Source of the DNA: Lytechinus pictus
Taxonomy: Eukaryota
Assembly: GCF_037042905.1 (NCBI RefSeq)
Contig: NC_087252.1
Coordinates: 3,474,001-3,538,000 of the forward strand
Length of the DNA: 64,000 bases
Direction: 5' to 3'
The notes below the pieces were generated by a model. It was not told the DNA's origin. It made no database searches and saw only the letters and a list, made by a program, of their open reading frames with translations. Below are positions 31,425 through 58,692 of the stretch, piece after piece. Positions within the stretch are counted from its first letter, which is position 1; the number at the start of each line of letters is the position of its first letter. A program made the translations under genes and the position numbers.

Positions 31425-31491
31425 ATGGCGTCTTCGGCTTCCATGTTTGTTCTGAAGCTTATAGTTGCAGCAATGCTTCGCTCGAAGACAG
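31425..31491 (+). CDS. IgSF V-C1-TM gene, candidate exon 1 (signal peptide)
   Basis: gacATGg context; MASSASMFVLKLIVAAMLRSKT; phase-1 donor cag|gtattg. Joins exon 2 in frame to give ...KTGTNA-QIRSF, a plausible cleavage site. Linkage across 21 kb is inferred. Confidence 0.6.
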
Positions 31492-31792
31492 GTATTGATA
31501 TTTTAGTTCTCGATATAAAATAGCCGGATTTTTTTTAATTCAGTTTTTAATTTATGTATCTATTAGATAATACCGGGAAATGAATTGGAAATATTTTTGT
31601 ATGTCATGTACACTGTAAAAAATGAAGTGCTAATTTAGCACTTACAGTGCATGTAACGAGTGCTGATTTTCTAGTTTAAATTTAATTGGAGATAGACGGC
31701 TTTATTCAGAATTATTGGTGGGGAAGGTTTGGCAAGCTTATCCGGAGTATAATTTTGCGCTGATTCCAGAAATCTAACTCTTATTGACCGTA

Positions 31793-34700
31793 CTCACGAC
31801 ATTTTGGACATTTTGGCTATTTTTTTAAACCAAAAATGACCAATAACATAAGTTCATTTTATCCAAAAATACTTTGAATGTTACCAGAACTGCTACAAGG
31901 GTGTGCTGTGACACTTAAAATTGGTGCATTAATCCTATAAAATAAACATTTCAAAAGTATTTTGACCTCATGTACTCCGTCAGTTTTGACCTATGAGGGT
32001 CATTTGGGTACTTTAGACATAACTGACCAATCTTGCAGTTTTTGCATGATAAACTGTGCAAATCGGCAAGAATTTGAGGTCTTCAGTGTACTTTATCTTC
32101 TTCCTTTATAAGAATAGGAATGCATTCATAGTCCTTCCTGTGTAGAATTTATTGCTGATTCCGAATATGTCAGTCCTAATGACCCCATTTAAAAGATTAT
32201 GGTCATTTTGGCCACCTTTGGAACCCCAAATGACCAATACCATCTGTTAAATGCTTCAAATTATCCAAAAATGAATTACTAGAATCGTTACAAGGGTGTG
32301 CCGTGACACCTTACACTGGTGTATTAATCATTTAAATTGAGTGTCCCAAATATATTTTGACCACCTTGGTCATTTTGGCCACATTGGCCCCTGCCCAATG
32401 TGTATACTAAATCAGCCTACAGCGATCATGGTGAGGAGACATTTCAGGATTTTGTTACTGTTAGCATCAATTAGTGTTAAATAGGAAAAGTTTGAAAGCT
32501 TTGGGGTGCAAATCAATGCAATGATTCCATATAAACTAATGGTATTGGCCAAACTATTGGACCCTGTGGTCATTTTGATAACTTTTTCCTCTATAATGAC
32601 CTATGACCATGCACACAGTATTTGATTTAAAAAGGGCTCAAATGTTGTTTAATATCAATATCCTTAAAAAGCTGTGTGCGCTATGAACGCCTTGAGCACC
32701 TAACAAGGTGGATATGTGTGCAATATAAATACCCTATATATTATTATTATCAGCCTGAGCTACGACACGAATAATCAAGAGTGTTAATTGAATGTGAATA
32801 AATTTTTAAAAACCTTCACATCAAGTTACATAAGGTTGTTTGACCATGCACTTTGGTAATTGTCATGACTCTAGGAACATTGACCATTTTGTGAATATTC
32901 ATGGAAACAAATATTGGATTTAGACATTTTTAGCATCATGATTTAATGTTAGATAGGACATATTAAAAACCTTTCTGAAGTAGAGTAATACAATTATTTC
33001 AAATATATTAGTCGTAATGACTATTTACTAACTAGTGGTCATTTTGCTCCCGTTTGGTCCCTACAATTAGCAATGACAGTTGCATGTATCAAAAGGATTC
33101 CAGTGTTGTTGCTCTGTATTTGTTTTTTGTAAGATGTGTTATAGCAATCATAATCAGTGACAAATTATTTAATTCAATATGATATTACTAATAGCACATA
33201 ATTAAAATGTGACCATTTTTATTTTGGCTACTTTGACCATTTATGCAATATGTGAATTTTGAAATAAACATGACTGAGCAGCAATTGTATGTCTATGAAA
33301 TGCGTTCAATCCCTTTTGATTGGAAATATTAAAGGCTCACCTTGACTAAGAATTGTGCCAAATATCTTGTGACTGTCTATTGTGGCCCCTTTGGTCACCA
33401 AATGGTCCTAAATAGCCAGCATTATTTTCCTTCTTAAAATTCAAAATATACTGAGAATCATTACAAAGCAAAGTTGGTCACAGTGAAGTTCACTAAGAGT
33501 TTTGACTATCATTCATTTTTCAATTCAATTCAATTCAATTCAATTCAAGTTTATTTTGCTCTCTGCATAAAAATGAACACAAGTGTGGTAAAATACATAG
33601 GAACAAAGTTTACATAACATCAAAGACATAAAAAAGCATTGAGAGGGAAGCAGCCAAAAAGGAAAAGAATATCCTTATAAAAAGGCCGACCCAACTTACT
33701 TTAAAAAGAATAATAATTATTGACAATATCAAAAGTAAAAAAAAAAAACAATTAGAAGACAATACAAAGGCATAGATACACAAATGGTAAGATTTAGATT
33801 ATATATATATATATAAATATTTACAAACAGGTTTAATTATCAAATATAAAGTTTCTGAAGTTACGTTTGAAAATATTAAATGAACAAGATGTTTTCAAAT
33901 TAACCGGCAAAGAATTCCAAAGTAGTGGGCCACGAAAGAAAATAGATTTATGAGAAAGGCAAGTTCTTATTTTAGGAAGGTGGAAGTTTGCAGCATTTCT
34001 AGTAGGGTATTCATGAATATTATAATTTAATTTAAAACAGTTCAATAAAAAAGAAGGTAAAAGTCCTTTAGAACATAGATACATAAAAAGTCCCATTTCA
34101 TACTTGTACATATCATAAATATTTAAAATTTTAAGTGAATGAAAAATAGGGGAGTTGTTTATAATTCTGACTGCACGTTTTTGAAGTTTATGTAATCTGT
34201 CTAAATAAATATTCGCAGCACTTCCCCAGGCAAGAATGCCATAATTTAAAAATGGTGAAATAATAGCATAATACAGCATCTTTAAAATATTTGGTGGGAA
34301 ATTATGCAATTTGTACATTATGCCTATGTTCTTAGATATCTTATTGCAGATGGCATCAATATGATTTAACCACGTTAATTTATTATCGATTATGACACCA
34401 AGAAATTTTAAAGATGAAACTTCTTTTATCATTGAACCACACAATTTTATATCAATTTCATTGGAGTTTATTTTCTTATTTGTAAATATCATAAAGTTAG
34501 TTTTAGAGACATTGAGGGATAACTTGTTCAAGTATAATTTTGACCATCTGTGTGGTTTTTTTTTACAATGCTTCACAAACCTCACATTGACATGATTGGT
34601 GAGCAGCAAATTTACTCTTAATTCTCTTGAAGAAATCCTGGGTAATAAAACACATTATATACATGAAATTATTCTCTGTGCCGATTTTTGGCAACTCTTT

Positions 34701-35935
34701 ATCAATTTAGGGCAAGTTTTCCACTGTCAAGTTCACAAACAAGGTCAATGTGAGGTGTGAGTAATGACGCATCTTTGAATTGAAGATTAGTGCCTTCCTC
34801 TAGAACATAGTCCTCTGTATAATTTAAATCAAGAAGGGGGGATGATGTTATCGCAATTTAAGGACCATATACAGTGACCAATTGGACCACATTAGACACT
34901 GGTGAGGTAGTTGACACAATTTTTACTCAAGGTGAGCTTGCAATATTTCCAATCGAAAGGGATTGAACGCATTTCCACAATTGCTCCTCAGTCATATTTA
35001 TCTACAATGTCACAAATTTATAAATGGTCAAAGTGGCCAAAATGACCAAAATGGTCCCAACATTTTGAATACGTATAACGTACTGTTACCATATTATGTT
35101 GAAATCAATAATTGATATAATACATTTTATCAACAATACGGAGTGACAACAACATTTGAATCCTTTTTAATACATGCAAATGTGATCGGTCATTGTCGAG
35201 ACCAAAAGCGACCAAAATGACCATTAGCTCATAAATGGTCATTAAGACTGATATATTTGGAATCGTTAATCTACATTAACTTGGAGAGGGTCCTAACATT
35301 ACATGTAAATGATGCTATCAAATGTGGTCAAGGTGGCTAAAATCATGTAAATGACCACAGTGCATGGTCAAACAATCTTATGTATGCTCGATGTAAAGAA
35401 TTTTATCACATTAATTTTTATCAACACTCTTCACCGATTATTGGAAGCTCATGCTGCCATGATACTGATCAACATTTGAGCCCTTTTTTAAATCATAAAA
35501 GCATGTGTGTTCACTGGTCAATAATGACGAAAAAGTGGTCAAAATGGCGACAGGGTCCAATATTTAGGCAAATTACACTGGTCTAAGTAGAATCATTTCA
35601 CCCAAAAGCTTTCAAACTTTCCCCATTTAACAATAATTGGTGCTAATATTCACGCAATTCTAAATTTCTCCTCATTATGTTCAATATAGCCTGAATTAAG
35701 AAACACAATGAGCAGGGCTAAATCGGGGGGGGGGGGGGGGGGGTCAAGGTGGCCAAATGACCAAGGTAGTCAAAATACTTTAGGGATGCTTAATTATAAG
35801 GATTCAATCACCAGTGTCACAGCACACTCTTGTTACGATTCTGGTAACATTCGAAGTAATTTTTAATAAATTGAACTGATGTTATTGGTCATGTTTGGTA
35901 AAAAATTGACCAAAATGGCCAAAATGTTGTGAGGG
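31793..35935. mobile_element. Old foldback-type element with kb-scale diverged inverted arms
   Basis: 31793-31915 mirrors 35812-35935, and 33280-33360 mirrors 34910-34995; intermediate blocks also mirror. A LINE is inserted in the middle. Confidence 0.75.
33520..34530 (-). mobile_element. 5'-truncated L2/Crack (CR1-group) LINE
   Basis: NKLSLNVSKTNFMIF..KFLGVIIDNKLTW..LNYGILAWG..LQKRAVRII..GPLLWNSLP; stop at 33833; 3' UTR hairpin, aataaa and (ttgaa)n tail at 33520-33555. Confidence 0.92.
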
Positions 35936-35974
35936 TGAATTATCGGATGGTTTAATACCACTGTGTTTTTTTAT

Positions 35975-36410
35975 CGGCTCGTCCAACTTCATATAGTCTA
36001 AAGTCATTTTGTCTACAAGTTCGTCTAATATCCAATTTGTCTATTTCCCATTTGGTCTAATATCAAATTCGTCTAATTCTCACTTGGTCTAATATCCAAT
36101 TAGTCTAATGAGCATTTGTGCTAAAGACATTTAGTCTAATTTCCAGTTGGTCTAACACCTCCTAACTTTCACTTCGGCTAATTTCCACTTAGTCTAATTT
36201 TCGTTTCGTCTAATTTCCACTTGGTCTAATATCCAATTGGTCTAATGATCAATTGGTCTAATAGCCAAATGGTCTAATGACCACTTGGTCTAATATCCAA
36301 TTGGTCTAATGACCATTTGGTCTAATCTCCAATTGGTCTAATTCCCAGTTGGGCTAATCGTTACTTGGTCTAACTTTCATCTGGTCTAATTCACACTTGG
36401 TCTAATCAAT
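35975..36410. repeat. Tandem array of 15-16-bp units (ttggtctaatNNccaN)
   Basis: More than 20 degenerate gtctaa-containing units; probably one arm of a repeat-filled DNA element. Confidence 0.85.
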
Positions 36411-36802
36411 TTATTCTAATTTGACATCATTCGTTATTATTTATTTTATCTAGAATTAACAAATGTGGTACGTAATGAATACATACTATGCATCAGTTGA
36501 TATTATAGAATGGATGAGAAAATCCCTGCAATCTGATTGGTTGAGAGCTATGCAAGTATTTTTCCTGGGCTGCATGAACGATATTCCGATCATCAAAACG
36601 ATATCCACTGTAAACAAGCTATCGCCCGAAAAGGTCATTGTTGGTGGATATACACATTGGTGTTAAACATGCTACTATATAGGGAAGGAAAAGATGATTA
36701 ATCACATTATTCTTTTAATAAAATATCTGATATTTGCTTACAGCAGGACTAAAAAGAGACCACCAAGTCCTAACGAAATTAGAAAAAAGATATTAGAAAA
36801 TG

Positions 36803-37376
36803 GGCTCGGTGTAAAAATGGCAAAGGTAAAAATGTCAGAGGTAAAAATGGCATAGGTAAAAATGGCAAAGGTAAAAATGGCAGAGGTAAAAATGGCAAAG
36901 GTAACAATGGCAGAGGTAAAAATGGCAAAGGTAAAAATGGCGGAGGTAAAAATGGCAGAGGTAGAAATGGCAAGATTTAAAAAGCTACTAAAATTATTAC
37001 GTTAACGGGGACGGCATTTGCGAGCAGTTTTCCCCATATATGGTGTAATAAAAATATCAATGAAATGTCATTTAAAATAAAATAAAATGGTTTTAATTGA
37101 ACCTTAAGTTTATTGACATACAAATAATTTCACATCCGCTCCTGAAAGGTTTTTTATTAGCAATCATGAACCACTGATTAAAAAAGATTGAAAAGTAGAT
37201 ATTTTGGTGCATAAATCTTTCTGCCATGTTTACCTCTGCCATTTTTACCTCTGCCATTATTACCTCTGCCATTTTTACCTCTGCCATTTTTACCTCTGCC
37301 ATTTTTACTTCTACCATTTTTACCTTTGCCATTATTACCTCTGCCATTTTTACCTCTGCCATTTTTACCCGGCACC
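36803..37376. mobile_element. Foldback MITE with inverted 15-bp arrays, GG..CC ends and 8-bp TSD (MULE/Merlin-like)
   Basis: (gtaaaaatggcagag)n at 36811-36972 and its reverse complement at 37221-37369. TSD agaaaatg at 36795-36802 and 37377-37384. Confidence 0.85.
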
Positions 37377-37764
37377 AGAAAATGAACGTGAAGAGAAAAT
37401 TTGAGCAGTAACGCGGGGGTAAATAAGCAAACAATTCAAAGAAATGGGAACATTTCTTTACAGGAATATAGAGGCGACAGAGCTCACGAGATTATGTTTG
37501 TTCATTATGGTGTTTTTCCTGTTTCAAACGGAACGCGGGCACCGTATGCAAGGGCGTATGAAGTGTGTGAGTGTTTGAGGGTGTGAAGTGTGGGGGTTTG
37601 CCGAGGGAAGGGGTTGGGTGGGTAAGGAGGGGGTAGGTACAACGCATATACTTTTATAAGTTGTTTTCTCTGATATTTGTTTGTTAAACTCATGTGGTAG
37701 TGGTACGATGCAGTATCTTAGAATATTATTTCATGATGTGCATAATGTATTAGTTTTCAACAAT

Positions 37765-38670
37765 CAAGTAATGCGAGCGCGAAGCGCGAGCTGAATTTTT
37801 TTACATTTCTACATAAAAAATGTAAAATTTTAATCGCTTCTTGTAATCGTAACAGGATAGGAATAAAACTAAACAATTTATTGATGCGAGCGCGAAGCGC
37901 GAGCGGAAAAAAAATCGACATTTAGACCTAAAAACGGGACACTCTATTCATATTTTGTAAATAATGAAAAGAATGAGTAATTGGAAATCATCCTACATTA
38001 TTATTGTGAGCGCAAAGCGCGAGCAGAAATTTTTAATATATGTTTTGATCTGATAAAAAAAAAAATATGTTAACGGCTGCTTGCAGTTAGCCCTGAAGAT
38101 GTTATATATTTCAACAATCAAATAATGCGAGCGCAAAGCGCGAGCTGAAAATTTTGACATTTCTATCTGAACAATGAACATTTTGAGCACTTTTTGTAAT
38201 TGCGAAAAGGAGAACTATGTATCTAAGAACAAGAACATTATGTCATTATATGAAAATGATGACTATATTTTCTTATTCTTCTTTCTAAGTGCGAGATTAA
38301 ACTTGTCGATATTCCATTCTCAAAAAAAGGAAAATTTGATTATTAAATTAATATTTTATTTATTAATCTAATAAGCCTAATGTGAGAGCGCGAAATTTAT
38401 GTATTTATGAATAAGATGCATGAGTTAATATATTTTTAATCATCAATGCGAGCGCAAATCGCGAGCTGAAATTTTAATATTCAGACCATAAAACAGAAAG
38501 TTTTACAGAAAACTTTTTTAAAATCAATTTGTAAATCCAACAAAATAACGAAAGTTCGATTTCCGAGCTAAAATATGTTTTCTATGTTGACTTCAAATTT
38601 TGACATTTCAAGCTCCATATTGATATGTAAATCACCTAACAAGCAATGCGAGTGCGAAGCGCGAGCGAAA
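37765..38670 (+). repeat. Degenerate periodic repeat with the gcgagcgcgaagcgcgag motif
   Basis: The motif recurs about every 110-130 bp; the same family occurs at 3040-3065, 29735-29755, 38920-39160 (inverted) and 58830-60000. Confidence 0.75.
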
Positions 38671-41600
38671 TGTTTTTTATAGTGACATGAAAGATTTTAA
38701 AAATTATTTTCCCAGTCTTCCCTTCATCTTATTTTATTTACTCGGCTTCCTCTTTTTGTGTTTCCCCTTCTTTTTTCTCCTCTCTTTTCTCTTTTTTTAT
38801 TTTTTTCTTTCTTTTCGCCCCCCCCCCCCCCCTTGGATCCGCCTATGCATACATATCCCATTTATAATTACAAATAGTGCTTAGAATGTCAATTCTTTAG
38901 GTCGACATGTCAAAAAGTTTTAGCTCGCGCTTCGCGCTCCCATTATTGAAATAAGTACCGTATTCGTGGGTAGCTGTAAACAGTCTGTTTCCTCTCATGT
39001 TAGAACGTTTATTGAAAATATCTGCTCGAGCTTCGCGTTTGCAGTAATTATCTTGTTACATCTGCGTCTTGTTCAGGATCACAAACAGTGCCCAGAATGT
39101 TCAATTTTAATGACGAAAAAAATGAAAGAAAAAAAAATCGCTCGCGCTTCGCACTCGCGCTTTTTATATAGGGTTTATGAGATTATTTAATATTTACGTT
39201 GTTTTACAGTGCCGGCCGCGGGAAACGTCACAGTGCCCCCTAGGGCGAACGCGGTAGCCCGTAGCGGACATTTGAGGGGAGCGGACGAGGGAAGACGCCC
39301 GCGTCCGCTCCCCTAGGACATGAGTGCCCTAGGGGAGCGCCCGAGGGTAGTCCCGCGTCTATCCTAGGGTGTTTCCGTAGGATGTTCGGCCGTGCATTCT
39401 TGGTCGAAAGAAGAGGACTGCATGTGATTTTTATCTCATATCAAGCATAAGTTTTCGATTATTTATCGTGGATAAAATCTGTTATGAAAATTACAAAGTT
39501 TTGGGTTGATAACTGGGATTTTAGGCTTTTTCACCGAATTACTTATTGTGTTCGATTACACACTGGCACCAGCGTAAATGGTCCTTTCCTATATAATAAT
39601 ATTCTTCCCGTGGTGTCCGTTATTTCATTCACTGACATGGTTAGTCGTGATCGTAAATGAGTTTCTGACAAAGGAGCAGGTATTTGTCGATGTTGACCCT
39701 ACATTCCGGAGGTCGTCCTATAACTGTTTACTATTCTTTCCCTGCATGGTCATCCTTTTTTTATATACCCTGACATGCCTTTCAGTCGCGGATCTACGAG
39801 ATGCAGATAAAAGGGAGAAGAAGAAAATAAAAATGAAAGAAAAGGCGAATATGAAGGGATGGATTGAAGACAAGAAGGAAAGAGATAAGAGAAATAGAAA
39901 TTGTGAGAGAAGGGGAAAGGGGAGAAAGAGAAAATAGAGGGGGGGGCGAAGAGGATAAAGAGGGAGAGGGGGTAAAGAAAAGAAATAAGGAAAAGGTGAA
40001 AATCGAGAAGAAAACAGAGGGGATAAAAAAGGGAAGGTGAGACAGAAAGGAAAATAGATTGAAAATCGAAGGGGATAAGAAGAGTCAAAGGAAGAAAAGG
40101 AAGGACAGAATGAGAAAGAGAGAATGATAAGGAGGGGGAAATTAAATAAAATGAAGAAGGGAGACATAATAAAATGGAGTAAAAAAGCGAAGGAGGGAAG
40201 AGAAGGAAGGGTGCAGGAAAAGGTAAGAAGTACAGGGGACAATAGAAGTGGGACTAAAGAAATGGTAGAGGAAAAGAGAGAAAGCGGGAAGAAAAATATG
40301 GGAAATTGTCCAGTTTTTTATATCAGAAAATACGTTAGTAACTCGCATCTGCCCATTTTTACGCTGATGACAAGTATTGAACATTCTTGCGCTCAATCTT
40401 GTAATTATTTTCTCTCACCTTGCTCACAATTTCCTGCTCTCGTTGCATCAATTAAAAACTTGTTCCGAATTAACATCCGCTCATTCAAGAAAGAAGAAAG
40501 AAAAATGAAAGAAAAAGGCAAATAGGAAGGGATGGAGGGAAAATGAGAAGGAAAATAGAAAAAGTGAGAGAAGCAGAAGGGAGCGAAGAAAAGAAGGGGA
40601 AAGGGGAGAAAGTGAAAATAGAGGGGGCTTATTGTTTCATGGAAATATGGATACCATATAGTTCTGCGGTACTTAGTTATGAAACTTGTTTTACTCAGTA
40701 ATGCTTACACGTGATGATTAAAAGGATTTTCGACTATATAGAGGTGAACCGGGACGGGGCTTTCATTCTTTAACTTGGCTTGACTAATTCAGTTGTTCCC
40801 CGAAAAGAATTGTTAGGTTTGATAGTTAGCGTTTGCGTGAGCACCCACCAAAACTCTTAACAAAAGAAATGAATGGTTTGTATAGCTCCATTCTTGCTTT
40901 GTCGGCAAGTGATAATTAACTCGTTAAGTACCCATTCCACACACTACGTCATAGTAGCTTTCGAAAACATACTTTTACTTGGGTATGTGTTTAAACATTG
41001 AAGCTAAATGTGCTAGAATTTTTTTAAATAGTTACATTATGTAAATAGCTTTTGCTGCTTTGCTCTGAAGCGCATTGAGCATCCAATCAAGATGGAAAGT
41101 GCGCTTTACAAATGCCATGTATTATTATTTTTAGCTGCCATATAACACTGAATTCTGTATTATACCAAGTTGTGACTTGGTTTTATCATTTCCAATTCAT
41201 ATAACAAAATATATTTCGAAGGAAAATCTTGCTTTACTGAAATAAAATAAATAAATAAAAAATGTTTATAACTTTAATTGATGTCCGACAAATCTATCAA
41301 TATAAAACCGCAGTTCGTAAATATGATAGTTTAATCTTTACTTCGACGTCAATTATTCGTGTTTTTATTATCATGTAGGTGTATCAGGGATATTAATATT
41401 CGTTTTAATCCCATCTATAATTTTGTATAAAATTGCGCGAAATATATGCGTTGTTCTCACTATGAAGCTGGAACCCCTCTTCATTTTTCTCATCCTCCTC
41501 TTCCTTCTTCTCCTTTATTATTTCCACCACTTTCATCTCTTCCCAATTCGAATATCTACCAATGTAACTTAAAAACCGCAATAGAGAGCAGGTAATGTAA

Positions 41601-44600
41601 TCAGATGTTTTAGCAAAAAGATAAATCTGTTACATCTATTACATTTAGGTAAATTTATATTTTTTATAGGGTGAGGGTTTTAGAGACCCGATTTGAACCG
41701 AAATGAAAAGAACATCCTCATTTATTGTTGTTAGCGCATCAACAAATTAATCCCCCCCCCCTCATTTCTATGAACATCCTGTCATAAATTGGGAAGCGGA
41801 TGTGATCAAAGGAGATCAATTGTGTGGGCGGGGAGCAAGACTCTACCAGACTGTTGACAATAACAAAAGAACCAAATAACAAATCGATGAGCACAACCAG
41901 TTTTGCTGGTGTTTGCTTTTTGCAAGTCTACTTTGTATGATCTTGGTCATACTAGTATTCGTTTTCACGTACCTTTCATTCCCTTTATTAGGGTTTTATC
42001 AACCATGTCAACGAATTGACGATCCCAATATTGACCGCACGTTTGTTTTAACATAATGAGAATTCGCAAATGCCCTTGATATTCATAATTCTGTTTTATT
42101 TTAAGTTTGTCATTAATGTTTGTTAACATTCACTCTGTTAATAACTTGTCAATTTTGACATTTTGAATTTTATCAAAAAAATAAAGTCTGCTTATTAATG
42201 CCTTTTATCTATTTTAATTATTTTTTGGTTGATATGCCTTTCTTTCTTCTTTCCTGATTCCACCCTGTGCACCCCGTTAAACTCAAGGAAGAATGTTTCA
42301 AATGTTTTCTAGTTCTTACACTGTTCATAATAAGGAGATGGGATTGGGTGTATAGTTTACGCTGAAGGGAGAGGAATGGGTACGTATGGAAAAAAAATAT
42401 CCCAAAAGATAGAGAATTGATCTCCATGACATTAAATCACAATTGTGTCCTATTTTTTCTAAACAAGTTTGTATGATACATGTATGCCTCCCACGTAAGG
42501 CGTAAGGAAAAAAGTTTACCTAATGCATCAAATTAGATTAATTGATTAGATTCATTGCGGTAAATGAAAAACAATAAATTCGATGTTCCAGCCAGGGTGA
42601 CCAGATTTCACAAAATTAAATACGGGACAATCGACAAAGCACTATGTACCATCGGATCGACCGAGCCAGGCCAAAAAATTAACAAAAAGGCTACACAATG
42701 TTAGACTTGTTAACAAAATATATTAAGAAAGGGGAAGGGATGGTGAGCGGAAGAAAGAAAAGAAACAAATAATGAGGAAACAAGAAATGAATTGAGAGGA
42801 AAGAAATAAATAAGGAAAAATTAAAAGGAAAAAAGTTTGAATAAAAGAGAGAACGGTTTCCGTCATTACTTGTAATAAATAAAGAAAGAAAGAATTAAAA
42901 TAAAGGAAGGGAAGATGAATAAATGTGTGAAAGAAAAAACATAAGGAGAGAAAAGAGAAAAGTAAGAAAAATGGAGGAAAAGAGAAAGAAAGAAAGAAAA
43001 ATAATTCCTTCATTATTTGAAAGAAACAAAGACAGAAGAAAACATGAAGGAAGAAAGGGAAATAGGGAATAAGGGAAAAGAATTAAAAGGGAAAACAGAA
43101 TTTTAAAAAAAAAAGAAAAAAAATAACATAAAAAAAAAATAATAATCTACAATAGATTCCGATCACGCTAGTTTAAAAACATAATGGTCTATCACAAGAT
43201 AACCAAAGTACATGCACATGTAAACATAATGCAATGTACGTACCCTAGGGTACCCGAGGATAAGTGCGGGCACGGCCAATAATACCCTGATAGCAGACAC
43301 GGTCGTAATGACGTCATTAACTGATCGTAAAGTGGTAATACTCGTCATGTCGTCGTATTTATGACGTTCTTACGACGTCATTTTGACGACTTTACTGACC
43401 AATTTACGACAAGTAAATTTGCTCGCTTATATGACCAGATTATGACGTGATTACGACGTCATTTACTGACCAATTTACGACAAGTAAATTTGCTTTCTTA
43501 TATGACCAGATTATTACGTGATTACGACGTCATTTATCGACCAATCTGCAACAAATGAATTTGCATTTTTATATGACCACATTATGACGTGATTATGACA
43601 TCATTTATTTACCAAACAACGACAAAGAAATTTTCGTTTTCATGTGACCACATTACGACGTGATTATGACATCAAATTTTACCAATCAACGACGAGGAAA
43701 TTTACAAGTTTAATTTCAAAGCCACATACTATTTTGCCATTTTTTCAACCTTGCCATGTTAGCAAGGCTATTTCTACTTATAAAAGGAAAAGTAAAACTA
43801 AAAAAAAATAGTACAGAATTTTTTTTATTTTAGGTAAAGTATATAATTCTTCAAAGAAAAAAAGTTTCAAAAGCAGTGGCAAAAATAATCATTTCTTAAC
43901 TGGTTGCCAACCAAACCAAACAAGAGGAAGCTTTATATGTCAAAGAAGTTTGTATCTATTCTAAAACTTTTTTTTCGCAAGTGGTGTCATGCCCCGGTGT
44001 CATGCAAACCCCCTATCTAGTTAGCTCACCCCCCCCCCCATGCACGCCCCCCGGGCTCACCCCCTATAAAAAATTCATGATCCGCAGAATTAATTCGCCG
44101 CCGGGCGTCGAGCCTGCGCATGCGCGCTGCAATGCATGCAACTGGCGCAGTCTAGTCGCAACCATTTAATTTGAAAAAGGAATGCGCCCGTTTTTCGCCG
44201 TTAAATGTTGCAGCCTAATTTTGGATCGAGAATTAAGTGCGACGAAGATGGCCGTTAATAATAGTTCTACTACTTTAAGAACACGGTTCAGATTTGGATA
44301 ACGACTTCGAAGGCATTCGCAGGAGACCAAACAGTAAGTTAGATAACCATCTTCTAAGATTTTCTTTTCGGAGCGCGGCTTGCCTTTGGCGTTAGATTTC
44401 GTGCACTGACACTGCTCGGCCGGCCCGGGGTGGCTGCCCCGAGCGCCGGCATGCTGAATAGGACAGGCTGCGCTGGTGGGCTCAGGGCCCAAGTCTGCAC
44501 AGACACAGTGTTGTGGTAACGATATCAAAATGAGTTCGTACAGAATCCAATGAAATGACCACCAAAGTGTCTGTCTATATTTATAAATAATATACGGTAT

Positions 44601-45927: not shown

Positions 45928-46029
45928 GGCCGTCACATGAAATGCCCTATATTCATTATTTTTCTACCAAAAGCACCATTTTGAGTAAGATTTTTAATGA
46001 ATAGATCTGTATTCTGTTTGACATTTCAG

Positions 46030-49107: not shown

Positions 49108-49378
49108 GGCCCCGTCTTACAAAGAGTTATGATTGATCCGATCAATCGCAACTATGGACGGTCAGCAACGTTAACATCTATTAAGCATGTTTGTTCAAAA
49201 TATTTTCTAGCTATGATGTATGTTCATGCATTCATTGTTTTCTCAAAAATTCGCTGCGCTTCTCTTTGCATACAAAGGACATTGTGCAAATTTTTCGTAG
49301 AAAAAAATTATGACACTAATGGATTTCCATAGAGTTATGATTGATCGGATCAATCGTAACTCTTTGTAAGACAGGGCC
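49108..49378. mobile_element. Harbinger-like MITE with CAG TSD
   Basis: TIR ggccc(c/t)gtcttacaaagagtta(t/c)gattgatccgatcaatc; cag on both sides. The empty site taccagatgtag is in the adjacent tandem copy at about 48534-48545. Confidence 0.9.
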
Positions 49379-51184
49379 CAGATCTAGATTATGTACAATA
49401 TTTTGACAATTAACCTTAATTTTAAAGACTTTCCGAAGAAATAATTGTTTGCTGCAACTACTGTCTTTTACCCCTGGCCCTAAGTGATAGTGTAATACAA
49501 CCCAAACATTTCATAAGAATTAATGTACATGTATGATTCTTTCACCCAAATGCGAGCTTCCATAAATCCTGAAACTATTCCAACTCGGGTATTTTTTTTT
49601 ACATACAGTATATTTTTACCTACATTACATAGTTGTCTAAAGTTGAAGGTATATTTAATTACAATTTCAACGAAAAAGCTTTATTCTTGGAGATCATTAT
49701 GCCTCTGTTATGTATTAATGTGTATTTATACATGTACAATTGTATGTATTGGTATAACAAACATTGTAATTTCATTCCTTTGACCCTAAAACTGCATTTT
49801 CATAGAAAAGTGTTTTTTTTTTCAATCTATTTAGAGTTTTCAACATTTTGTATTCCTTTTTTTTTTTGCTGGTAATATGTTATGCAACTTTTATTTATTA
49901 ATAGAATATTTGCCACGATTTCGTAATTGAAATGTGTACATGTATTTGATTTCGTTTTCCATTTTTGTATATATTCTTTTTCGGGGGGGGGGGTCATGTT
50001 CTTGAGACCGAGACAAGTTATGTAAGGCCCTGGCATGGAGGATCATTATATTGTTACTGGGAATGCTGGACATTGTCAGACCACCTCAGTATTCACCAAA
50101 TATAGATAATCCTCAATGACAAGGTCTTTGAAGTGATGTGTGTATGTACATTGCATGTAGAATTTAATGTTTAGGTCATTATCACGTCAGAATACGTTAA
50201 GATATCATAGTTGACTCCAAAAGACGTCATATTCATTTCAATATGCGACGTCAATATGACGTCTATTACTAGTCAGCAATATGTTGCAAAGTCGTCATTC
50301 AGACGTCGTAGTTGACTTATAAAGACGTCAGGAATACGTCGCAAAGTTGTCATTAAGACGTCGTAGATGACTTTTAAAGACGTCATAATTACATCAATAT
50401 GACGTCTAAAACCGGTCAGGAACACGTTGCACGGATGTCATTAAGACGTCGTTGTTGACTCTCGAAGACGTCATAATCACGTCAATACACGACGTCAATC
50501 TGACCCTTGATACTGGTCAGGAAAACGTTGTAAAGACGTCATTAAGACGTCGTAGTCACTCTTGGAGACGTCATAATGACGTCAATATACGACGTCATAA
50601 TGACGTTATTCGCGGGTGCAAGATCCCGTCAATAAGACGTCATGTTACGACGTCAAAATGACGTGACACTCGTCGTTAAACTGACGTAATTATGACGTCA
50701 TTTTTACCAGTTTCTGCTATCAGGGTATATAGCACGCAGGAAACTGCGGGCGCGTCTAAACACCCTAGTCTGCTCCCCTTGAATACCCTCGGTTAGACGC
50801 GAAAGCCCCCTAGGGTGTTTGCGTGCTCGGGCGTGACGTTTCCTGCGGCCGGCACTGTATAAGAATAAAGTTAAGAAGTGACTGATCGGGGAAAATATAG
50901 GTGAAGATAATTTCGGGCTCCACCCCCAGTCGGATCTGCCCTTGTGACATAGTCTATACACACACACAGAAAAAAAATGTTGCCCCCCCCCCCTTGAAAA
51001 ATCAAGGACCCCCCCCCCCCCCCCCCCGGAAAAAAATCCCAGCTACGCCACTGGTTGCTGGGATTACTTGATGGCAAAGATGGATGTATTGTTAGGCTGT
51101 TTATAAGAGCCGTTGGTTCCACCAGTTTAAAGTTGCAATTGCGGGAGGCGTTCTTCTGTTCTATTTCTGAACTAAATAGAACCA

Positions 51185-52127
51185 TTTTTGTCCCACCTGC
51201 ATAGCAGAGTGAGACTATAGGCGCCGCTTTCCCGACGGCGGCGTCGTCAACACCAAATCTTAACCGAAGATTAAGTTTTTGAAATGACAGCATAACTTAG
51301 AAAGTATATGGATCTAGTTCATGAAACTTGGCCATAAGGTTAATCAAGTATTACTGAACATCCTGCTTGAGTTTCATGTCACATGACTAAGGTCAAAGGT
51401 CATTTAGGGTTAATGAACTTAGACCATGTTGGGGGAATCGACATCAAAATCTTAACCTAAGGTTAAGTTTTTGAAATGTCATCATGACTTAAAAAAAAAT
51501 ATGGACCTAGTTCATGAAGCTTGGACATGATAGTAATCTAGTATCACTAAACATCCTGTGTAAGTTTCAGGTCACATGATAAAGGTCAAAGGTCATTTAG
51601 GGTCAATGAACTTTGGCCAAATTGGGGATATTTGTTGAATTACCATCATAACTTTGAAAGTATGTTGGTCTAGTTCATAAAACTTGGACATAAGAGTAAT
51701 CAAGTATCACTGAACATCCTGTGCGCATTTTAGGTCACATGACCAAGGTCAAAGGTCAATGAACTTTGGCCATAATGGGGGTATATGTTGAATTACTATC
51801 ATAACTTTGAAAGTTTATGGATCTGACTCGTGAAACTTGGACATACGAGTAATCAAGTATCACTGAACATCCTGTGCGAGTTTCAGGTCACATAATCAAG
51901 GTCAAAGGTCATGTAAGGTCAATGAACTTTGGCCACGTTGGGGGTATTTGTTTGAATTACCATCATATCTCTGTAAAGTGTATTGGTCTATTTCATAAAA
52001 CGTGGAAATAAGAGTAACCAAGTATCACTGAACATCTTGTGCGAGTTATAGTAGTTTTCAAAGTCAGCACTGCTGCTATATTGAATCGCGTGATGCAGGT
52101 GAGACCGCCAGAGGCATTCCACTTGTT
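51185..52127 (+). mobile_element. Helentron-associated non-autonomous element (HINE/DINE-like) with internal tandem repeats of about 135-140 bp
   Basis: 5' ttttt-gtcccacctgcat and 3' atgcaggtgagac sub-TIRs, short GC hairpin/microsatellite, repeated aggtcaaaggtca units, ends cttgtt. Confidence 0.75.
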
Positions 52128-52617
52128 CCACTATTCCTTCAGATGGCCCAGACGCCATGAATCGACGGCGGGGTCAGCCTGCGATTACCAGATCTTGCGT
52201 AGGGAACCAATGACCTAGGTATCTGTTTCCCGGGCCTCTGGGATGACCATAGTCTCCCTGATGGTCACGTCACTTGTGACCCTTCGGTTACCATATGTTT
52301 TTCTTTTTATTACCATGGTATCGCAGCTTGTTTCCCGTCCGTCATTGCAATAAATAATTAGGGAAATTACTTTATATGATTTCATATATATCTTCCATGG
52401 TGATTTGTCAAATTGAAGATACGGATTATTGAAAATGTTTTACATGATTGCATATTAATTATATTGTTATATTGAACTTGAATATGCCAACTCAAACAGA
52501 GACATAAAAAAAGAGGAAACGGCAGTATCAAGCATTCCCATTGCATTTCTTATTAAAATTGGCAAAAGTAGTATACAATAGTCCTTAAGTTTTTCCATTC
52601 ATAATTTTTTTTTTCAG

Positions 52618-52944
52618 GAACGAATGCTCAAATAAGATCTTTTCCGGCAGAGCTAAACAGAAGCGTAGATATACCATGTGGTTGTACTATTTGCCCGGAG
52701 TTAACCTTTCGAGTTCAGTGGTACTTAAGCAGTAACCAACATGTTTTCCAAAAGGATGGACATGCTGTAGCGTGGTGGTCTGTTGGACGGAATGGCAGCA
52801 CCAAGGGGTTTGATATCAATGCTGACTTCTCAATGAAGATATACTACCTTACACCCCAACACAACAAACAGCTATTCAGGTGTTTGGTTGTCCCAGCTGA
52901 TGGTTCTGAAGATTGTACCCATGACGCTACATTACACATCTATG
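52618..52944 (+). CDS. IgSF gene exon 2: V-like Ig domain
   Basis: Polypyrimidine-cag acceptor, g|gtaaat donor, phase 1-1, stop-free: TNAQIRSFPAELNRSVDIPCGCTICPELTFRVQWYLSS...DFSMKIYYLTPQHNKQLFRCLVVPADGSEDCTHDATLHIY (B-strand C, C-strand WY, DFSMKI, F-strand FRC). Confidence 0.88.
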
Positions 52945-54690
52945 GTAAATACTTAACACTTTTTCCTGAATCATCCAGCAATTTCAATGATCTAAAAGAA
53001 GTAATATAAATTTATATGTTTATGTCATAGCTCTAGCTGTGACATTAAGTGCCGTCCAGGGAATCGAACCCTGGAATTTCATGTGTGTAGTAAGATTCTT
53101 TAGATCCCTCGACAACCCCGCCGTTTCGCAGCCATTAGAATTCAAATTTGGCGTCTTGTGCGCTTTATCGGTGAGGCTTTTATTAAATTCACTTAAGAAC
53201 AGCCCTTTGAGCACTTGATTTACAAATTAGTTTGGGAGGGACTAGAAAGCTAAAGACAAATATTATATCCACAAACTTTCATCCCATTCCATTCTTGAAA
53301 AATAGTTTAATATAAACAAGCAAAATTACACATGTATTTTATGTCATATGCTTCACATCACATCAACCGTTTTAAGGCCCCCTCACACCTAACCGAATTG
53401 CCTGAAATATGCCTTGCGATGGCTGGCGAAAGGCATTTTTTATTAATCGTTTTCAATGGTAACTGATAGTGAATCATATTTACCCTTCGTGTTTGGGTTC
53501 GCACACCTTCTGAACTAACAGCTGCGATTATTCAAATTCGGGCGGAAATTTTGAACATGTTTGAAATTTCCCGACGAATTGAAAAATCGTTAGCGACCTG
53601 TTTGAATTCGCATCTCTTATTTAGTCTGCGGTAATCGTTTATCATGCTTATCGTTCGTGTTTTATTGTCGCGCATAGTCCCTCATCGCGCTTTTGCCAAA
53701 GTTCGTCTTAGTGGGTTATATTAACCCTTCGCTCGCCTTCAGCTGCAATTTACTCAAAGAGGTGAACCGAAAATTGATATCCTTTGGAAGTCATATTTAT
53801 CCTTCACTTACCGTTCGTTGATTAAATTTTGCAATAGATACTGATCGCATGATTTGACGGAAATTTCATTTGAATACGTTTAATTCGTGTGCATTTCGTG
53901 TTTTTCCCCATTCTTCACTTTTTTTTTACAATTTCGGGTAATACGATGTAAAAGCATTAATGCTTTGTAACATAGAAGAAGTTCAATGAGTACATTTTCC
54001 CAACTTGGGGACCGCTCTAACTTTCTGAGAGAATGATTTGATAAAATACCAAGAGATATCAAATTGCATCATTTAAAATTGATTTTAGAACATCATCTAA
54101 GAGTAGTCTTTGATTCTGTAATAACCACCTTTCGCAAACCTCTACAACGCGACATTAGAGCCCGGTAACACAAAAGTTAACGATTAATCATATAGACTCG
54201 ATTTTCTAGATTGATTGTACATTATACTCAATACAATCGAACGTAGAAAACTGTTCTACAATCATTGCTAAGCTTTGTGTTACAGGACCTATAGATCTTG
54301 CTTTTCGTGTGCAAATTTTTTCATACGCTACCAGCATGCCATGCCATCTGCCTGCCTGCCTGAGCTCGCGGAGGGACTGTACTATCATGACTATCATGGC
54401 TCCAGCTGGCTGGAGACATGCGAAGTGTAGATTGTGACATGGATAAGAAAGTGGTTTTTCAAACAAATCGAGTACATATTGAGTGAGGAAAACTTACTGA
54501 ATTCAGACTTAGATATAAATCATTATTGTCCATCGAATCTATGTTGCATCTAATGTGGATTATTGGTGGATCACTAGCAATTGATTCCATGGGTCAGATC
54601 ATCTCTCCAGCTGAACCATTTCGCATGCGCTGATATGTACACAGCATTATGCAATAGGCTTATTCGTCCGAAACTCACCAAACTTTGCTC

Positions 54691-55588
54691 TAGCCTCAGT
54701 CTTGTCGAGGCCCTGTCGGCTGCTTTCCGAGCGAACATGGCGAAGCAAGGGCGAGAGCGAAGCAGAGCGCCGCGAGACAGGGCCTCTTGACATCTGGGCC
54801 GAATTGAACGAACTTTCTTTTGTTATTTATTGTTTTTACCAATATACCGACCAAAAACTGGTCGGTGAAAATCATCCAATGAGAGCGCGTGCTGCTATGA
54901 CGTCATGTTGAATATTCATGAGCTCATCTTTATAGCGACCCGTGGATTCTTGGCGAAAAGTGACGACGAAATATCAAAGAGCATTGAATATGCCTCTAAA
55001 ATGCCGAATATTGACCGATTTAAGGATTTGCAAGTCGATAAAATTAAATCTGTACTGAAAGGACGAAATGTTTTTGTAAATCTACCCACAGGATATGGAA
55101 AAAATGTTATCTTTCATGCGATTCCACTATGTGTCGATTATCGTTCTCCGCGGTGCAATGAGGGAATGCTGGAGTAGAGTTGTTTCCCCTTGACTCGAGT
55201 CAGACCAGCGGCTGATCAGTATCTCCCGGGAAGTTTCGGGGCGGTGATGGGTCTTTACGGACAGTACTAGTAGTAATTTTAGTAGTACCACTGCTTGTAG
55301 CATTTTGCTGGTTATATCCCATTTAGTGTCCCGCAATTAATTGAATCCCCTGCAGAATAGTGGACTACTATAGTATTCCGAACCCCGGACGAGACATTTC
55401 ATTGGTTTACTAGGTGACCGGTGATATTACAACTCATGTATATTCATTAGGAAGACGTTCCTCATGAATATATAATTCAGCTCAGATGTCAAGAGGCCCT
55501 GGCTCGCGCCAGGCCTAATTCGCTTCGCGCAATAGGAAATCCCTCGCTTCGCTCGGGAAGCAATCGCCAGGGCCTCGACAAGAGGCTA
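54691..55588 (+). mobile_element. AcademH-like non-autonomous derivative
   Basis: tagcct..cttgtcgaggccctg / cagggcctcgacaagaggcta termini, long bipartite TIRs, 9-bp TSD actttgctc (54682-54690, 55589-55597), internal RecQ-like fragment. Confidence 0.85.
54905..55177 (+). pseudogene. RecQ-like SF2 helicase N-terminal fragment (Q motif plus motif I)
   Basis: FKDLQVDKIKSVLKGRNVFVNLPTGYGKNVIFHAIP; no downstream DEAH motif, so truncated. Confidence 0.8.
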
Positions 55589-56190
55589 ACTTTGCTCCGG
55601 CTCCGAGAACCGCGGCTAGCTATTAATGCATATGCATGATCATGAACGGACCCCCGGTTCTATACTCTCTGATTGGCTAATATTTTGACGTGTGCTTGTT
55701 AGGAAATGCGGTCAAATTTTTTTTCATCCACGGTCAGTAATCAGGTAATGGTTTTTTTTTTATCGGCTGTATGTTAATGAAAATATGACATCACACCTCA
55801 CTAACCGTTTGTCCGCCGATGCGTGTAAAGTTTTTGTAATGTATTACAACCAATTTGGAATTACTGGATATTTGTATGACGATTAATGTGGAAGTTTAGA
55901 CAGGGTGCATGGATACTTAAGCAATTCCGATATCGAGCTATATTGGGGTCAAGCACCAATCCAAAGTTGGATTGAAATTTTCAATCTAATAGATTTAGAA
56001 TTCAATAATTTTCGATTGAGACTTGCAACCCAATTTTGGATTGGTCCCTGTATAACCACAACCTATTAGATGTACATAATTATTTTCAACTTTACTTCAT
56101 GAAATCGTGTTAATTTGGCACTATGGGAATGTACATACAATTCATTCATTCGTTCGCTCATTTCATTTCATTTCACTTCATCATTGGTAG

Positions 56191-56526
56191 CTAAACCCGA
56201 AGAACCACCTGCCATTGAATACACTCGACATTCTGACCAAACTGGTGGCTGCAATGTGACTTGTTCCATATCACACGTTTTCCCTCTGACCTTCCCAGTA
56301 TTTGGATCCAAAGAAGAAAATGGAAGTAAAGGAATCCTACTGAATAATGACGGCACGTTCAACACAAATGTGACGACATACTTTTCAAGGGTAGATGGTG
56401 ATACCACCATAGAATGTCTGTACTCATTAAGGAATTTTAAGAGCAAGTCTTCTTTACGAATCGTTGATTATGGTGACATCAGTGAGCGAGATGGGGAAGA
56501 AGATTGCGTGGATAAGAATAATACTG
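56191..56526 (+). CDS. IgSF gene exon 3: C1-like / CD80-type C domain
   Basis: tag acceptor, g|gtaatt donor, phase 1-1: AKPEEPPAI...NVTCSISHVFP...NNDGTFNTNVTT...IECLYSL. Confidence 0.88.
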
Positions 56527-56988
56527 GTAATTATAGCCTACTATTATTCGATAAAACAGAGTCTAAGATGCCCTTAGAAAAAAATGATCAAATTAATGTG
56601 CATTTATCCACGTTTAACATGTGATAAGTAGATTCGATTTAAATCATTAAATGCATCATTTAAAAAAGAAACATAATAAAAAAATAAATTAGCTGTTTTG
56701 CAAAACACTAATAAGTATAACAAAACAAGTAAAACTGAAATTTCATTTCCGAAAAAATTGTTCGTGTATGTTAATTATACCTTAGGTCTGTAATTTAAAG
56801 TAACTTTCGGCACATATAATGCGGAATATTTGATCTCTGCCTGAATTTGAAATCCAGTTTTAGGTGTGTCAGTAAGAGTTGCTTATGGCTGTTTTAGTAG
56901 ACAAAATACCAGTCCTATTTTCCGTAAAGTGAAATACATTGCAGAGTGGAAATGTACCTTTTTTGTAGTTTTTAATTTTACTTTTTCA

Positions 56989-57300
56989 CATTGGCGGCGG
57001 AAACCAAAAAAATAAGGGGGTCCACCTGAAAGTGTGGGATGGACACAGGTAAAAAATTTGACAAGCACCCCCCCCCCCCCCAAAATAAAAAAAAGGTCAT
57101 CAACCTAAATTTTGAGGGGGACCACAAACATTTCAAGCGGGGTGCACGTTAATTTAGGAGGGGCGCAGGAAACAAAATTGACAAGCAAAAAAAAAACGTT
57201 ATCAATAAAAAATATAGGGGGACCGTCCCCCTCACCTCAAATTAAGGGGGGACACGTCCCCCCCCCGCCCCCCCCCCCCCCCCCGTTTCCGCCGCCTATG
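56989..57300. mobile_element. hAT-like MITE
   Basis: TIR cat(t/a)ggcggcggaaac; 8-bp TSD ctttttca / cttcttca. A related partial copy lies at about 25850-26223. Confidence 0.7.
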
Positions 57301-57404
57301 CTTCTTCATGCTCTTGCGAAGTAGAGTAAAAATCGCAATAGAAATACATATATAATGACAATCCAAACATGTTTTAAGCTATTACGTCTACTTTTGCTGT
57401 ACAG

Positions 57405-57506
57405 ATTCCAACTTCAGATGCAGAAGTCCAGGATTGTGGTTGCTATGGACAATACTGATAATGGAAGTCCTATTAGTGGTCCTTATCTCCTACACGATAA
57501 TGATTG
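57405..57506 (+). CDS. IgSF gene exon 4: transmembrane segment
   Basis: cag acceptor, g|gtaggt donor, phase 1-1: DSNFRCRSPGLWLLWTILIMEVLLVVLISYTIMI. Confidence 0.8.
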
Positions 57507-57718
57507 GTAGGTACTTTTCAAATTATAATATGCCCTAAAACTTAGTATTTGCCGTTAATGCAAACAACGTTTTCTTATACCTTGGTCACATTTGCTCTAC
57601 GGCCGCCGTACGCCGAGTCGAAAACAGCCGTTTTATGCATTTTTATTCAAACCACCTATATATAGCTGGTACATAAAATGTTAGAACGGCTGTTTACGAC
57701 TGGCCGTTATGTAACCAT

Positions 57719-58362
57719 AGTATACAAATATACTTTGCCTTGAGAGTTTCTGGTTAAAACTATGGGCAAGAGGTGACTCCAGAATAGAACTATTCACTGA
57801 GGGGCGCAGCCCCGAAGTGAATGGTACTATTGGAGGCACCGAGGCCCATAGTTTTAACCAGAAACTCGAAATTATGGCAGAGTATATTTGTTTTATATTT
57901 TGGATCAAAAATTTTAACAAAAGGAAAAAACAGAATAATGGCTTACCTTTTATACCCTCTTGTCACTCTCATGGTCTTATGGTCTTTTTAAAAATCATAT
58001 CCAATTTTAATGAAATCCAAGTTTTAATAGTCAATGAAAATGTCTGAAAAAGGTCAAAGCAGAAACTGTAGTCTAAAAACGTAGCCGCGACGTCGCGAGT
58101 ATCGCCCATGGTAAGCACTCGAGCTCTCGTATACCCCGCTGAATGTTGGTGATTTTGATATCACGCGCATCAGGCGTATGGCGCCGTGACGTCATTTCCC
58201 CAAATAGTTTTACTATTTGGGGAAATGACGTCACAAAAATGACATAATTTTCTCAAATAGTATCCCTAGCTGCCAACATTCCAAAATAGTTGAAAATACA
58301 CATAATCACGTGAAGCTCTTTTAGCCAATGACCGGAGGATAAATTTTTGATCCAAAATATAA
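57719..58362. mobile_element. Crypton-like non-autonomous element
   Basis: Long hairpin 57720-57895 centred on attcactgaggggcgcagccccgaagtgaat; inverted tatattttggatcaaaa / ttttgatccaaaatata; no TSD found. Confidence 0.45.
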
Positions 58363-58453
58363 TAGAGAATAAAGCAATAACATATTTCACGTTTTCCGAT
58401 GACAGATGATAACATAATTGTTTATTTTTGTTTTTATACTACCCATTTCACAG

Positions 58454-58692
58454 GTCGTCTCCTCTTGAGAATTGCTAATCGCGACTCAAATCATGCGGAT
58501 GACAGGCTTGGGCATGGTGGAGCAGCCAATCTTGAATATGACGATACCACTGTGGCAAATTTGAATAGCAATAGTTCAGAAAATAGAGAGAATACGTTAA
58601 TTTCTAGAAAGCTGTTCCATTATTTCTTTGCAGCCATTATTTCTTTGGTTATCCACATGTCTATCCTAATCATGGTAATAATACTCTTATAG
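58454..58692 (+). CDS. IgSF gene exon 5: cytoplasmic tail (3' boundary uncertain)
   Basis: tttcacag acceptor, phase 1: GRLLLRIANRDSNHADDRLGHGGAANLEYDDTTVANLNSNSSENRENTLISRKLFHYFFAAIISLVIHMSILIMVIILL then TAG. Confidence 0.7.

What the first reader, a model, noticed from the sequence alone, without database searches (positions are those of the whole stretch)
31425..58692. Invertebrate V-C1-TM immunoglobulin-superfamily gene with antigen-receptor/B7-like exon layout
Seen: five exons join in frame, one domain per exon, every intron phase 1, giving leader + V-like + C-like + TM + tail (356 aa). The second domain has CxxxxxFP and NNDGTF. Known: those motifs typify C1-set and CD80/tapasin/butyrophilin-type domains; C1-like domains are rare outside jawed vertebrates, though V-C1-TM genes have been reported in sea urchins. 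Inference: a fast-evolving immune or recognition receptor. It is the only host gene in the window and is largely invisible to the ORF track.
Basis: partly seen in the sequence, partly recalled or inferred. Interest (0 to 1): 0.7.

Follow-up and report, generated by a model that had tools for sequence, protein, structure and literature searches.

The report
Two-pass B7-like sea urchin receptor
A real, spliced sea-urchin gene encodes a surface protein with two antibody-type domains resembling human B7 and SIRP immune proteins, which is predicted to cross the membrane twice and likely serves cell-to-cell recognition rather than acting as an antigen receptor.

Summary
The gene is real. Five GT–AG, phase-1 exons give 356 aa. 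Public contigs join exons 2–5. Exon 1 ranks 1 of 330 candidate first exons against sea-urchin homologue leaders. NCBI's Lytechinus pictus model LOC135155027 is this gene without the leader and most of the V domain.

It belongs to a small family found only in sea urchins among named hits. Family profiles match CD80 best (E 5e-6); domain 2 alone matches SIRP domain 3 (E 7e-6). Domain 2 keeps two C1 motifs in 9 of 9 members but lacks the core tryptophan in all 9 and passes no Pfam cut-off: C1-like, not proven C1.

The layout is V–C–TM–loop–TM, without a J motif or conserved tyrosine motif. Best reading: a B7/butyrophilin-like recognition protein with a two-helix anchor. V–C1 receptors are already reported in sea urchins; I found no report of the two-pass form. 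Folding attempts failed.

The parts
31425..31491 (+). Exon 1: leader (22 codons + 1 nt); signal peptide predicted, cleavage probably early in exon 2
52618..52944 (+). Exon 2: complete V-set-like domain (B-strand Cys, C-strand Trp, F-strand Cys, spacing 68), three extra Cys, no J motif
56191..56526 (+). Exon 3: C1-like/C2-intermediate Ig domain lacking the core Trp (about 56193-56465) plus start of an acidic, glycosylation-site-bearing stalk
57405..57506 (+). Exon 4 (102 nt, symmetric): end of stalk and predicted TM1 with two invariant Trp and Glu264 (codon 57464-57466)
   Evidence: 102-letter gap in two spliced contigs; hydropathy and conservation
58454..58692 (+). Exon 5 coding part: basic juxtamembrane stretch, about 45-residue acidic loop with one Tyr, and predicted TM2 (about 58612-58689, His345 at 58654-58656) ending at the stop
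58693..60116 (+). 3' untranslated region, at least to 60116, made largely of degenerate repeats
   Evidence: X1 record 7 covers 58453-60116 in one piece; self-BLAST

Best explanation
This spliced sea-urchin gene encodes a leader, a V-type and a C1-like Ig domain and two hydrophobic helices, and the protein likely works as a B7/butyrophilin-like cell-surface recognition molecule whose V domain would bind a protein on another cell while a predicted two-helix membrane anchor holds it and would recruit a partner inside the membrane. Shown: exon structure, splicing of exons 2-5, the small paralogue family, the motifs, conservation of the TM1 acid and of a second hydrophobic segment. Inferred: (1) signal cleavage and N-out topology, with the loop in the cytoplasm (basic residues flank both of its ends) and the C-terminus facing out; (2) TM1 and TM2 pack as a hairpin, with Glu264 and His345 each about 11 residues from the outer end, so able to pair or to form a polar face for a membrane partner; (3) because the loop is short, variable and has no conserved tyrosine motif, the protein acts as a ligand or as the binding subunit of a larger complex rather than signalling alone; (4) an immune-cell context, from weak expression of paralogues in coelomocytes.
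For: Whole-family profile against PDB: CD80 first (E 4.9e-6 over both domains), then SIRP alpha/gamma domain 3, with CD86 and B7-H6 further down. Domain 2 profile: SIRP alpha/gamma domain 3 at E 6.6e-6 and 1.6e-5, next hit E 0.44. Atlas: V-set clusters for domain 1; herpesvirus glycoprotein C, butyrophilin C2-set_3 and C1-set/C2-set_2 clusters for domain 2. Second hydrophobic segment in 5 of 8 family proteins that reach TM1, a sixth ending 12 residues into it; exon 5 aligns without gaps through the stop in a second organism; the two helices are the only confident part of the AlphaFold model, pLDDT about 80. TM1: two Trp in 8 of 8, Glu/Asp in 7 of 8; one TM2 column is His/Gln/Lys/Asn in 4 of the 5 complete TM2. 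Loop Tyr in 2 of 8, an ITIM-like string in 1 of 8 at the membrane edge. S. purpuratus paralogues LOC105441778 and LOC105438103 are listed as markers of a phagocyte and a colourless-cell cluster (PMC13043383 supplement). Precedent for extra membrane segments in B7-related proteins: Skint-1 has IgV, IgC and three TM (PMC4861494); MOG has a second hydrophobic domain (PMC5420591).
Against: No ligand, partner, localisation or function was tested. PDB matches are weak, and NCAM, FGFR2 and Beaten path also appear in the list, so closeness to B7 may reflect only a shared V-C layout. No family member passes a Pfam Ig cut-off. Two of 8 models (P0002, P0016) lack TM2, and P0002 keeps the TM1 Glu without it; in P0008 the TM2 His sits five columns away. 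TM2 identity is only 7-30%. Coelomocyte counts are low (0-36 reads in 29 libraries for three paralogues, against 2-444 for Sp-B7L3), the marker table lists about 33,900 rows so a marker call is weak, and these data are for another species' paralogues; no other tissue was compared.
Confidence: 0.5

Rival explanations
1. A non-immune adhesion or neural/gamete recognition molecule of nectin, ICAM, Kirrel or Beat type, with the B7 likeness due to shared V-C architecture.
For: Pfam ICAM-1/3/5 D2 is the commonest weak hit for domain 2 (8 of 9 members, best E 0.0034); NCAM and Beaten path Vb in the PDB list; very low bulk coelomocyte counts; the gene called Sp-B7L3 is annotated by NCBI as kin of IRRE-like, showing how loose 'B7-like' is in sea urchins.
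Against: Best full-length and domain-2 PDB matches are CD80 and SIRP; no relatives outside sea urchins among named hits, and several divergent paralogues, whereas core adhesion molecules are usually traceable across phyla (own knowledge).
Confidence: 0.25
2. An activating innate receptor that binds non-self ligands through its V domain and signals through a separate tyrosine-motif adaptor held by the charged TM residue, the nearest thing to the first reader's antigen-receptor idea.
For: Conserved mid-membrane acid in 7 of 8; short loop without signalling motif; V plus C1-like ectodomain, one domain per phase-1 exon; paralogues in coelomocytes. Charged TM residues assemble TCR-CD3, Fc-receptor and DAP12 complexes (recalled).
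Against: No J motif in 12 V domains, V in a single exon, no recombination signal nearby; the family found is small, about six loci in S. purpuratus and two in L. pictus; a polar residue in the protein's own TM2 could satisfy the acid; ligand-binding chains of TCR and DAP12-coupled receptors usually carry a basic, not acidic, residue (recalled).
Confidence: 0.15
3. The C-terminal hydrophobic segment does not span the membrane: it is a re-entrant, MOG-like membrane-associated helix, or an alternative anchor used when the symmetric exon 4 is skipped (single anchor or GPI-type signal).
For: Exon 4 is 102 nt and skipping keeps the frame, giving 322 aa; one database model of a paralogue (P0017) lacks the TM1 stretch and keeps TM2; the window protein ends exactly at the hydrophobic segment; two models lack TM2.
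Against: Both contigs that bridge exons 3 and 5 include 102 letters between them; P0017 is a chimeric prediction with an HSP70 piece; TM2 is long and hydrophobic enough to span (Kyte-Doolittle 19-mer maxima 2.35-2.94) and is followed by polar tails in four relatives.
Confidence: 0.2

Closest known systems
Sea-urchin IgV-IgC1 transmembrane receptors of S. purpuratus (as summarised in PMC3308324; passage read)
   Same: V-set plus C1-like ectodomain, membrane-anchored, too divergent for routine domain searches, echinoid.
   Different: The passage mentions no second membrane segment. The primary paper was not held, so whether this family is the one described could not be checked.
Vertebrate B7 family (CD80, CD86, B7-H6)
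   Same: Leader-V-C-TM order, one domain per exon; CD80 is the best PDB match of the family profile (E 4.9e-6).
   Different: Second hydrophobic helix, acidic TM1 residue, domain 2 without core Trp, extra V-domain cysteines; orthology not shown.
SIRP alpha/gamma membrane-proximal domain (C1-set; class label recalled)
   Same: Best match to domain 2 (E 6.6e-6), sharing the B-strand Cys-x5-[FY]-P and the N-x-D-G-T-[FY] hairpin.
   Different: In the alignment the family lacks the Trp and about eight residues after it; one C domain rather than two; no ITIM tail.
Skint-1 and MOG (B7/butyrophilin-related)
   Same: Ig ectodomain followed by more than one hydrophobic segment (PMC4861494, PMC5420591; passages read).
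   Different: Skint-1 has three TM, MOG a single V domain; MOG appears only at E 0.41 and Skint not at all, so the likeness is in topology and is probably convergent.
Sp-B7L3 (SPU_020457, LOC762504), phagocyte marker
   Same: Sea-urchin IgSF gene named for B7 likeness and expressed in coelomocytes (PMC5695280, PMC13043383).
   Different: A different gene id, annotated kin of IRRE-like, and not among the named relatives found.

Membership tests
Ig V-set domain (exon 2) | B-strand Cys, C-strand Trp, F-strand [YF]xC with about 65-75 residue spacing | tested here: met
   Spacing 67-70 in 8 of 8 complete V domains; Atlas V-set clusters 0.95
Ig V-set domain (exon 2) | Pfam V-set score above cut-off | tested here: inconclusive
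   Window exon no hit; 4 of 15 proteins hit at E 3.5e-4 to 1.8e-3, 19-21 bits against a cut-off of 26
   9 of 9 aligned domains
Ig C1-set domain (exon 3) | Conserved C-strand Trp packing on the disulfide (PMC12227049 passage) | tested here: not met
   0 of 9 have Trp in that stretch; Cys-Cys spacing 49-53; SIRP and MICA alignments show a 7-9 residue deletion there
Ig C1-set domain (exon 3) | Pfam C1-set above cut-off and preferred over C2/I-set models | tested here: not met
   C1-set 1 of 9 (E 0.0076), C2-set_3 1 of 9, ICAM D2 8 of 9, none above cut-off, no I-set hit
Ig C1-set domain (exon 3) | ABED/GFC strand topology with a D strand (PMC7916673 section 7) | tested here: inconclusive
   Single-sequence models had pLDDT 46 and under 50 in this domain; fold searches uninformative
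Rearranging antigen receptors (Ig/TCR) | J-type [FW]GxG motif in the G strand (motif recalled) | tested here: not met
   0 of 12 V domains
Rearranging antigen receptors (Ig/TCR) | V split into segments flanked by recombination signal sequences (consensus recalled) | tested here: not met
   Whole V in one exon; one weak look-alike in the window, at 58751 on the minus strand with an 11-base spacer, far from the V exon
B7/butyrophilin/Skint | Leader-IgV-IgC ectodomain with closest sequence similarity to B7 members | tested here: met
   CD80 top hit at E 4.9e-6, CD86 1.4e-3, B7-H6 9e-3; weak, and non-B7 proteins are interleaved
B7/butyrophilin/Skint | Orthology by tree or MHC-paralogon synteny | not testable with these tools
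   No genome held; no vertebrate sequences fetched for a tree
B7/butyrophilin/Skint | Single TM (B7, butyrophilin) or three TM (Skint-1) | tested here: not met
   Two hydrophobic segments after the ectodomain in 5 of 8 proteins
S. purpuratus IgV-IgC1 TM receptors of the 2006 genome survey | Identity with the gene models listed there | not testable with these tools
   Paper not held; only a review passage seen

The most novel reading that the evidence does not exclude
Sea urchins have their own B7/Skint-like recognition family in which a true C1-type fold (older than jawed vertebrates, or independently evolved) sits on a two-helix membrane module with a buried acid-polar pair that switches partners or transmits binding, with exon-4 skipping toggling between two-pass and single-anchor forms on immune cells.
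Probability: 0.15. Interest if true: 0.75.

Novelty: new variant of a known kind. Interest (0 to 1): 0.45.

Why it matters
Reviews still state that C1 domains are limited to jawed vertebrates (PMC7916673), while others report V-C1 receptors in sea urchins (PMC3308324). This family gives a concrete, expressed test case in a laboratory sea urchin: its domain 2 is closest to SIRP's but lacks the core Trp, so one structure would say whether a C1 fold exists outside vertebrates. The predicted two-pass anchor with a conserved membrane acid is an unusual design for an Ig receptor and points to an unknown membrane partner. The work also extends the truncated public gene model by 94 N-terminal residues, which supplies the leader and binding domain that any experiment needs.

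Full report
Observation. None of the five exon translations hits a Pfam Ig family. The product is identical over 262 residues to NCBI's uncharacterised Lytechinus pictus protein LOC135155027 (XP_063959441.1), which starts at an internal Met in the V exon and so lacks 94 N-terminal residues of this model.

Splicing. Six runs were listed for 52400-58900, none on record as RNA; four were laid on 52200-60400. From the table of pieces: X1 record 1 joins exon 2 to exon 3 with no other letters; X5 record 16 (a second organism) carries exon 2, exon 3, 102 unlisted letters and exon 5 in order; X6 record 25 carries exon 3, 102 letters and exon 5; X1 record 7 extends exon 5 to 60116. X2 listed no exon-joining piece. 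Exon 4 is inferred from the 102-letter gap, which equals its length. Exon 1 lay outside the laid stretch. X5's match runs three letters (CAG) into the upstream side, with 68 further letters unplaced; of 274 candidate donors in 52.6 kb only two end in CAG, and the 31425-31491 exon is the best of 330 candidates against the leaders of P0004 and P0016 (37 versus 17; 7 of 2000 shuffles reach it). BLASTP of the 22-mer alone found no match to P0004. I take exon 1 as likely, not shown.

Family. A search of 1.84 billion representatives gave 15 hits: the protein itself, 13 relatives and one bacterial repeat protein that I dropped. A profile search added four sequences. Named members are five S. purpuratus loci (LOC105437411, 105438103, 105439297, 105441778, 105444876) and L. 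pictus LOC129267368; the rest are unnamed. No named hit lies outside sea urchins. Identity to the window protein is 38-54% over complete V domains and 38-60% over domain 2. Four DNA-derived ORFs read out of the V exon at the same point as the window does, so that exon boundary is shared.

Domain 1. V-set features are present (spacing 67-70 in 8 of 8 complete domains); the Atlas lists V-set clusters at 0.95; four relatives reach Pfam V-set just under cut-off. No J-type motif occurs in 12 V domains, and no recombination signal flanks the exon. Two extra cysteines, one two residues after the B-strand Cys and one in the G strand, are both present in 7 of 8 complete domains and both absent in the eighth, which suggests a second disulfide; a third extra Cys in 5 of 8 has no evident partner (pairing inferred).

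Domain 2. The domain profile's only clear PDB matches are SIRP alpha and gamma domain 3 (E 6.6e-6, 1.6e-5); the single sequence weakly matches MICA alpha-3 (E 0.47); the Atlas gives herpesvirus glycoprotein C, butyrophilin IgC and C1-set/C2-set_2 clusters at 0.91-0.92. Against this, the core Trp, described as the conserved pin of Ig domains (PMC12227049, passages read), is absent in all nine, the Cys-Cys spacing is 49-53, and Pfam's commonest weak hit is ICAM D2 (8 of 9) with C1-set in 1 of 9. Structure prediction failed. The domain is C1-like in the broad B7/SIRP/butyrophilin/ICAM-D2 sense; membership of the C1-set is not met on two tested features and open on topology. The two-domain profile matches CD80 first (E 4.9e-6), with NCAM, CD86, B7-H6, light chains, Beaten path and FGFR2 following.

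After a stalk, exon 4 encodes TM1 (about residues 253-279); exon 5 encodes a loop and a second hydrophobic segment (about 331-356) that ends at the stop. Of 8 family proteins that reach TM1, 5 have the second segment, one ends 12 residues into it, and two models lack it. TM1 has two Trp in 8 of 8 and Glu/Asp at one column in 7 of 8; the exception (P0016) also lacks TM2, but P0002 keeps Glu without TM2. One TM2 column is His, Gln, Lys or Asn in four proteins; in P0008 a His lies five columns earlier. In the window protein Glu264 and His345 are each about 11 residues from the predicted outer end. The loop is 13-45 residues, 0-18% identical to the window's, with Tyr in 2 of 8. Exon 4 is symmetric and its skipping would keep the frame, but both bridging contigs include it. 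In the second organism exon 2 differs at 20 of 329 letters, exon 3 at 10 of 336, exon 5 at 29 of 272 and the UTR piece at 29 of 343; V versus C p = 0.06, C versus UTR p = 0.003.

Expression. In S. purpuratus coelomocytes three paralogues have raw counts of 0-13, 0-36 and 0-3 across 29 bulk libraries; LOC105441778 is a listed marker of cluster 4 (phagocytes) and cluster 10 (colourless cells), LOC105438103 of cluster 10, with log fold changes 0.8-1.2 in a table of about 33,900 rows that was cut when stored (PMC13043383, passages and parts of supplement files 2 and 6). Sp-B7L3 is another gene, LOC762504, with counts of 2-444. This shows presence in immune cells, not specificity.

Mechanism. The most likely reading (0.5) is a B7/butyrophilin-like recognition protein: V domain binding a protein on another cell, domain 2 and a glycosylated stalk as spacer, and a two-helix anchor whose polar residues pair with each other or with a membrane partner, since the loop has no conserved signalling motif. 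All functional steps are inferred. Rivals are a non-immune adhesion molecule (0.25), an adaptor-coupled activating receptor (0.15), and, on topology alone, a non-spanning or alternative C-terminal anchor (0.2; compatible with any function).

Known and new. V-C1 transmembrane receptors in sea urchins are reported (PMC3308324, passage read), against reviews that confine C1 to jawed vertebrates (PMC7916673, passages and section 7 read). Whether this is the family of the 2006 survey could not be checked. Extra membrane segments occur in Skint-1 (three TM; PMC4861494, passages) and MOG (second hydrophobic domain; PMC5420591, passages), without sequence evidence of kinship here. Ten searches listed no description of a two-pass V-C receptor in echinoderms; the library is incomplete. 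Earlier scan notes had nothing by sequence, words or nearby place and one unrelated IgSF pair elsewhere in the genome. Verdict: real gene, new variant of a known kind, interest 0.45.

Noticed in passing
window 27740-29695 (-): 651-codon open frame with RVT_1 and zf-RVT hits, a LINE retrotransposon piece about 1.7 kb upstream of exon 1.
   Followed up: partly
window 33833-34654 (-): 273-codon frame in intron 1 that looks like the C-terminal part of a LINE protein (resemblance recalled; no Pfam hit).
   Followed up: partly
window 54869-55177 (+): DEAD/DEAH helicase motif fragment (E 0.0011) inside intron 2, in a stretch with high contig depth in all four runs, so part of a dispersed repeat.
   Followed up: partly
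window 10598-14516 and 39205-43284: Two copies of a roughly 4-kb element, 92-95% identical, beginning with the same sequence; one lies in intron 1.
   Followed up: no
window 20501-21481 / 22056-23034; also 8940-9079, 10008-10194, 10326-10601, 14645-14766 and their copies: A 99.6% identical 980-base duplication and several 100% identical 120-280-base pieces: very recent duplications or assembly artefacts.
   Followed up: no
window 26244-26575 and 36811-37369: Pairs of short tandem arrays (42-base and 15-base units) in opposite orientation, foldback-like.
   Followed up: no
window 58693-60116: The 3' UTR is at least 1.4 kb and built largely from a degenerate repeat of about 245 bases.
   Followed up: no
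P0005, P0017, P0007: Database models of relatives look faulty: P0005 ends in an unrelated stretch without TM, P0017 starts with an HSP70 piece and lacks the TM1 stretch, P0007 has a long non-leader N-terminus and no TM.
   Followed up: partly
window 52618-56526: Two cysteines without an evident partner in the ectodomain (residues 48 and 152) and two in the stalk (237, 249) could allow disulfide-linked dimers.
   Followed up: partly
P0005 and P0016: Two S. purpuratus paralogues are both recorded on a contig of 53,101,916 bases, so probably the same scaffold; clustering not checked.
   Followed up: no
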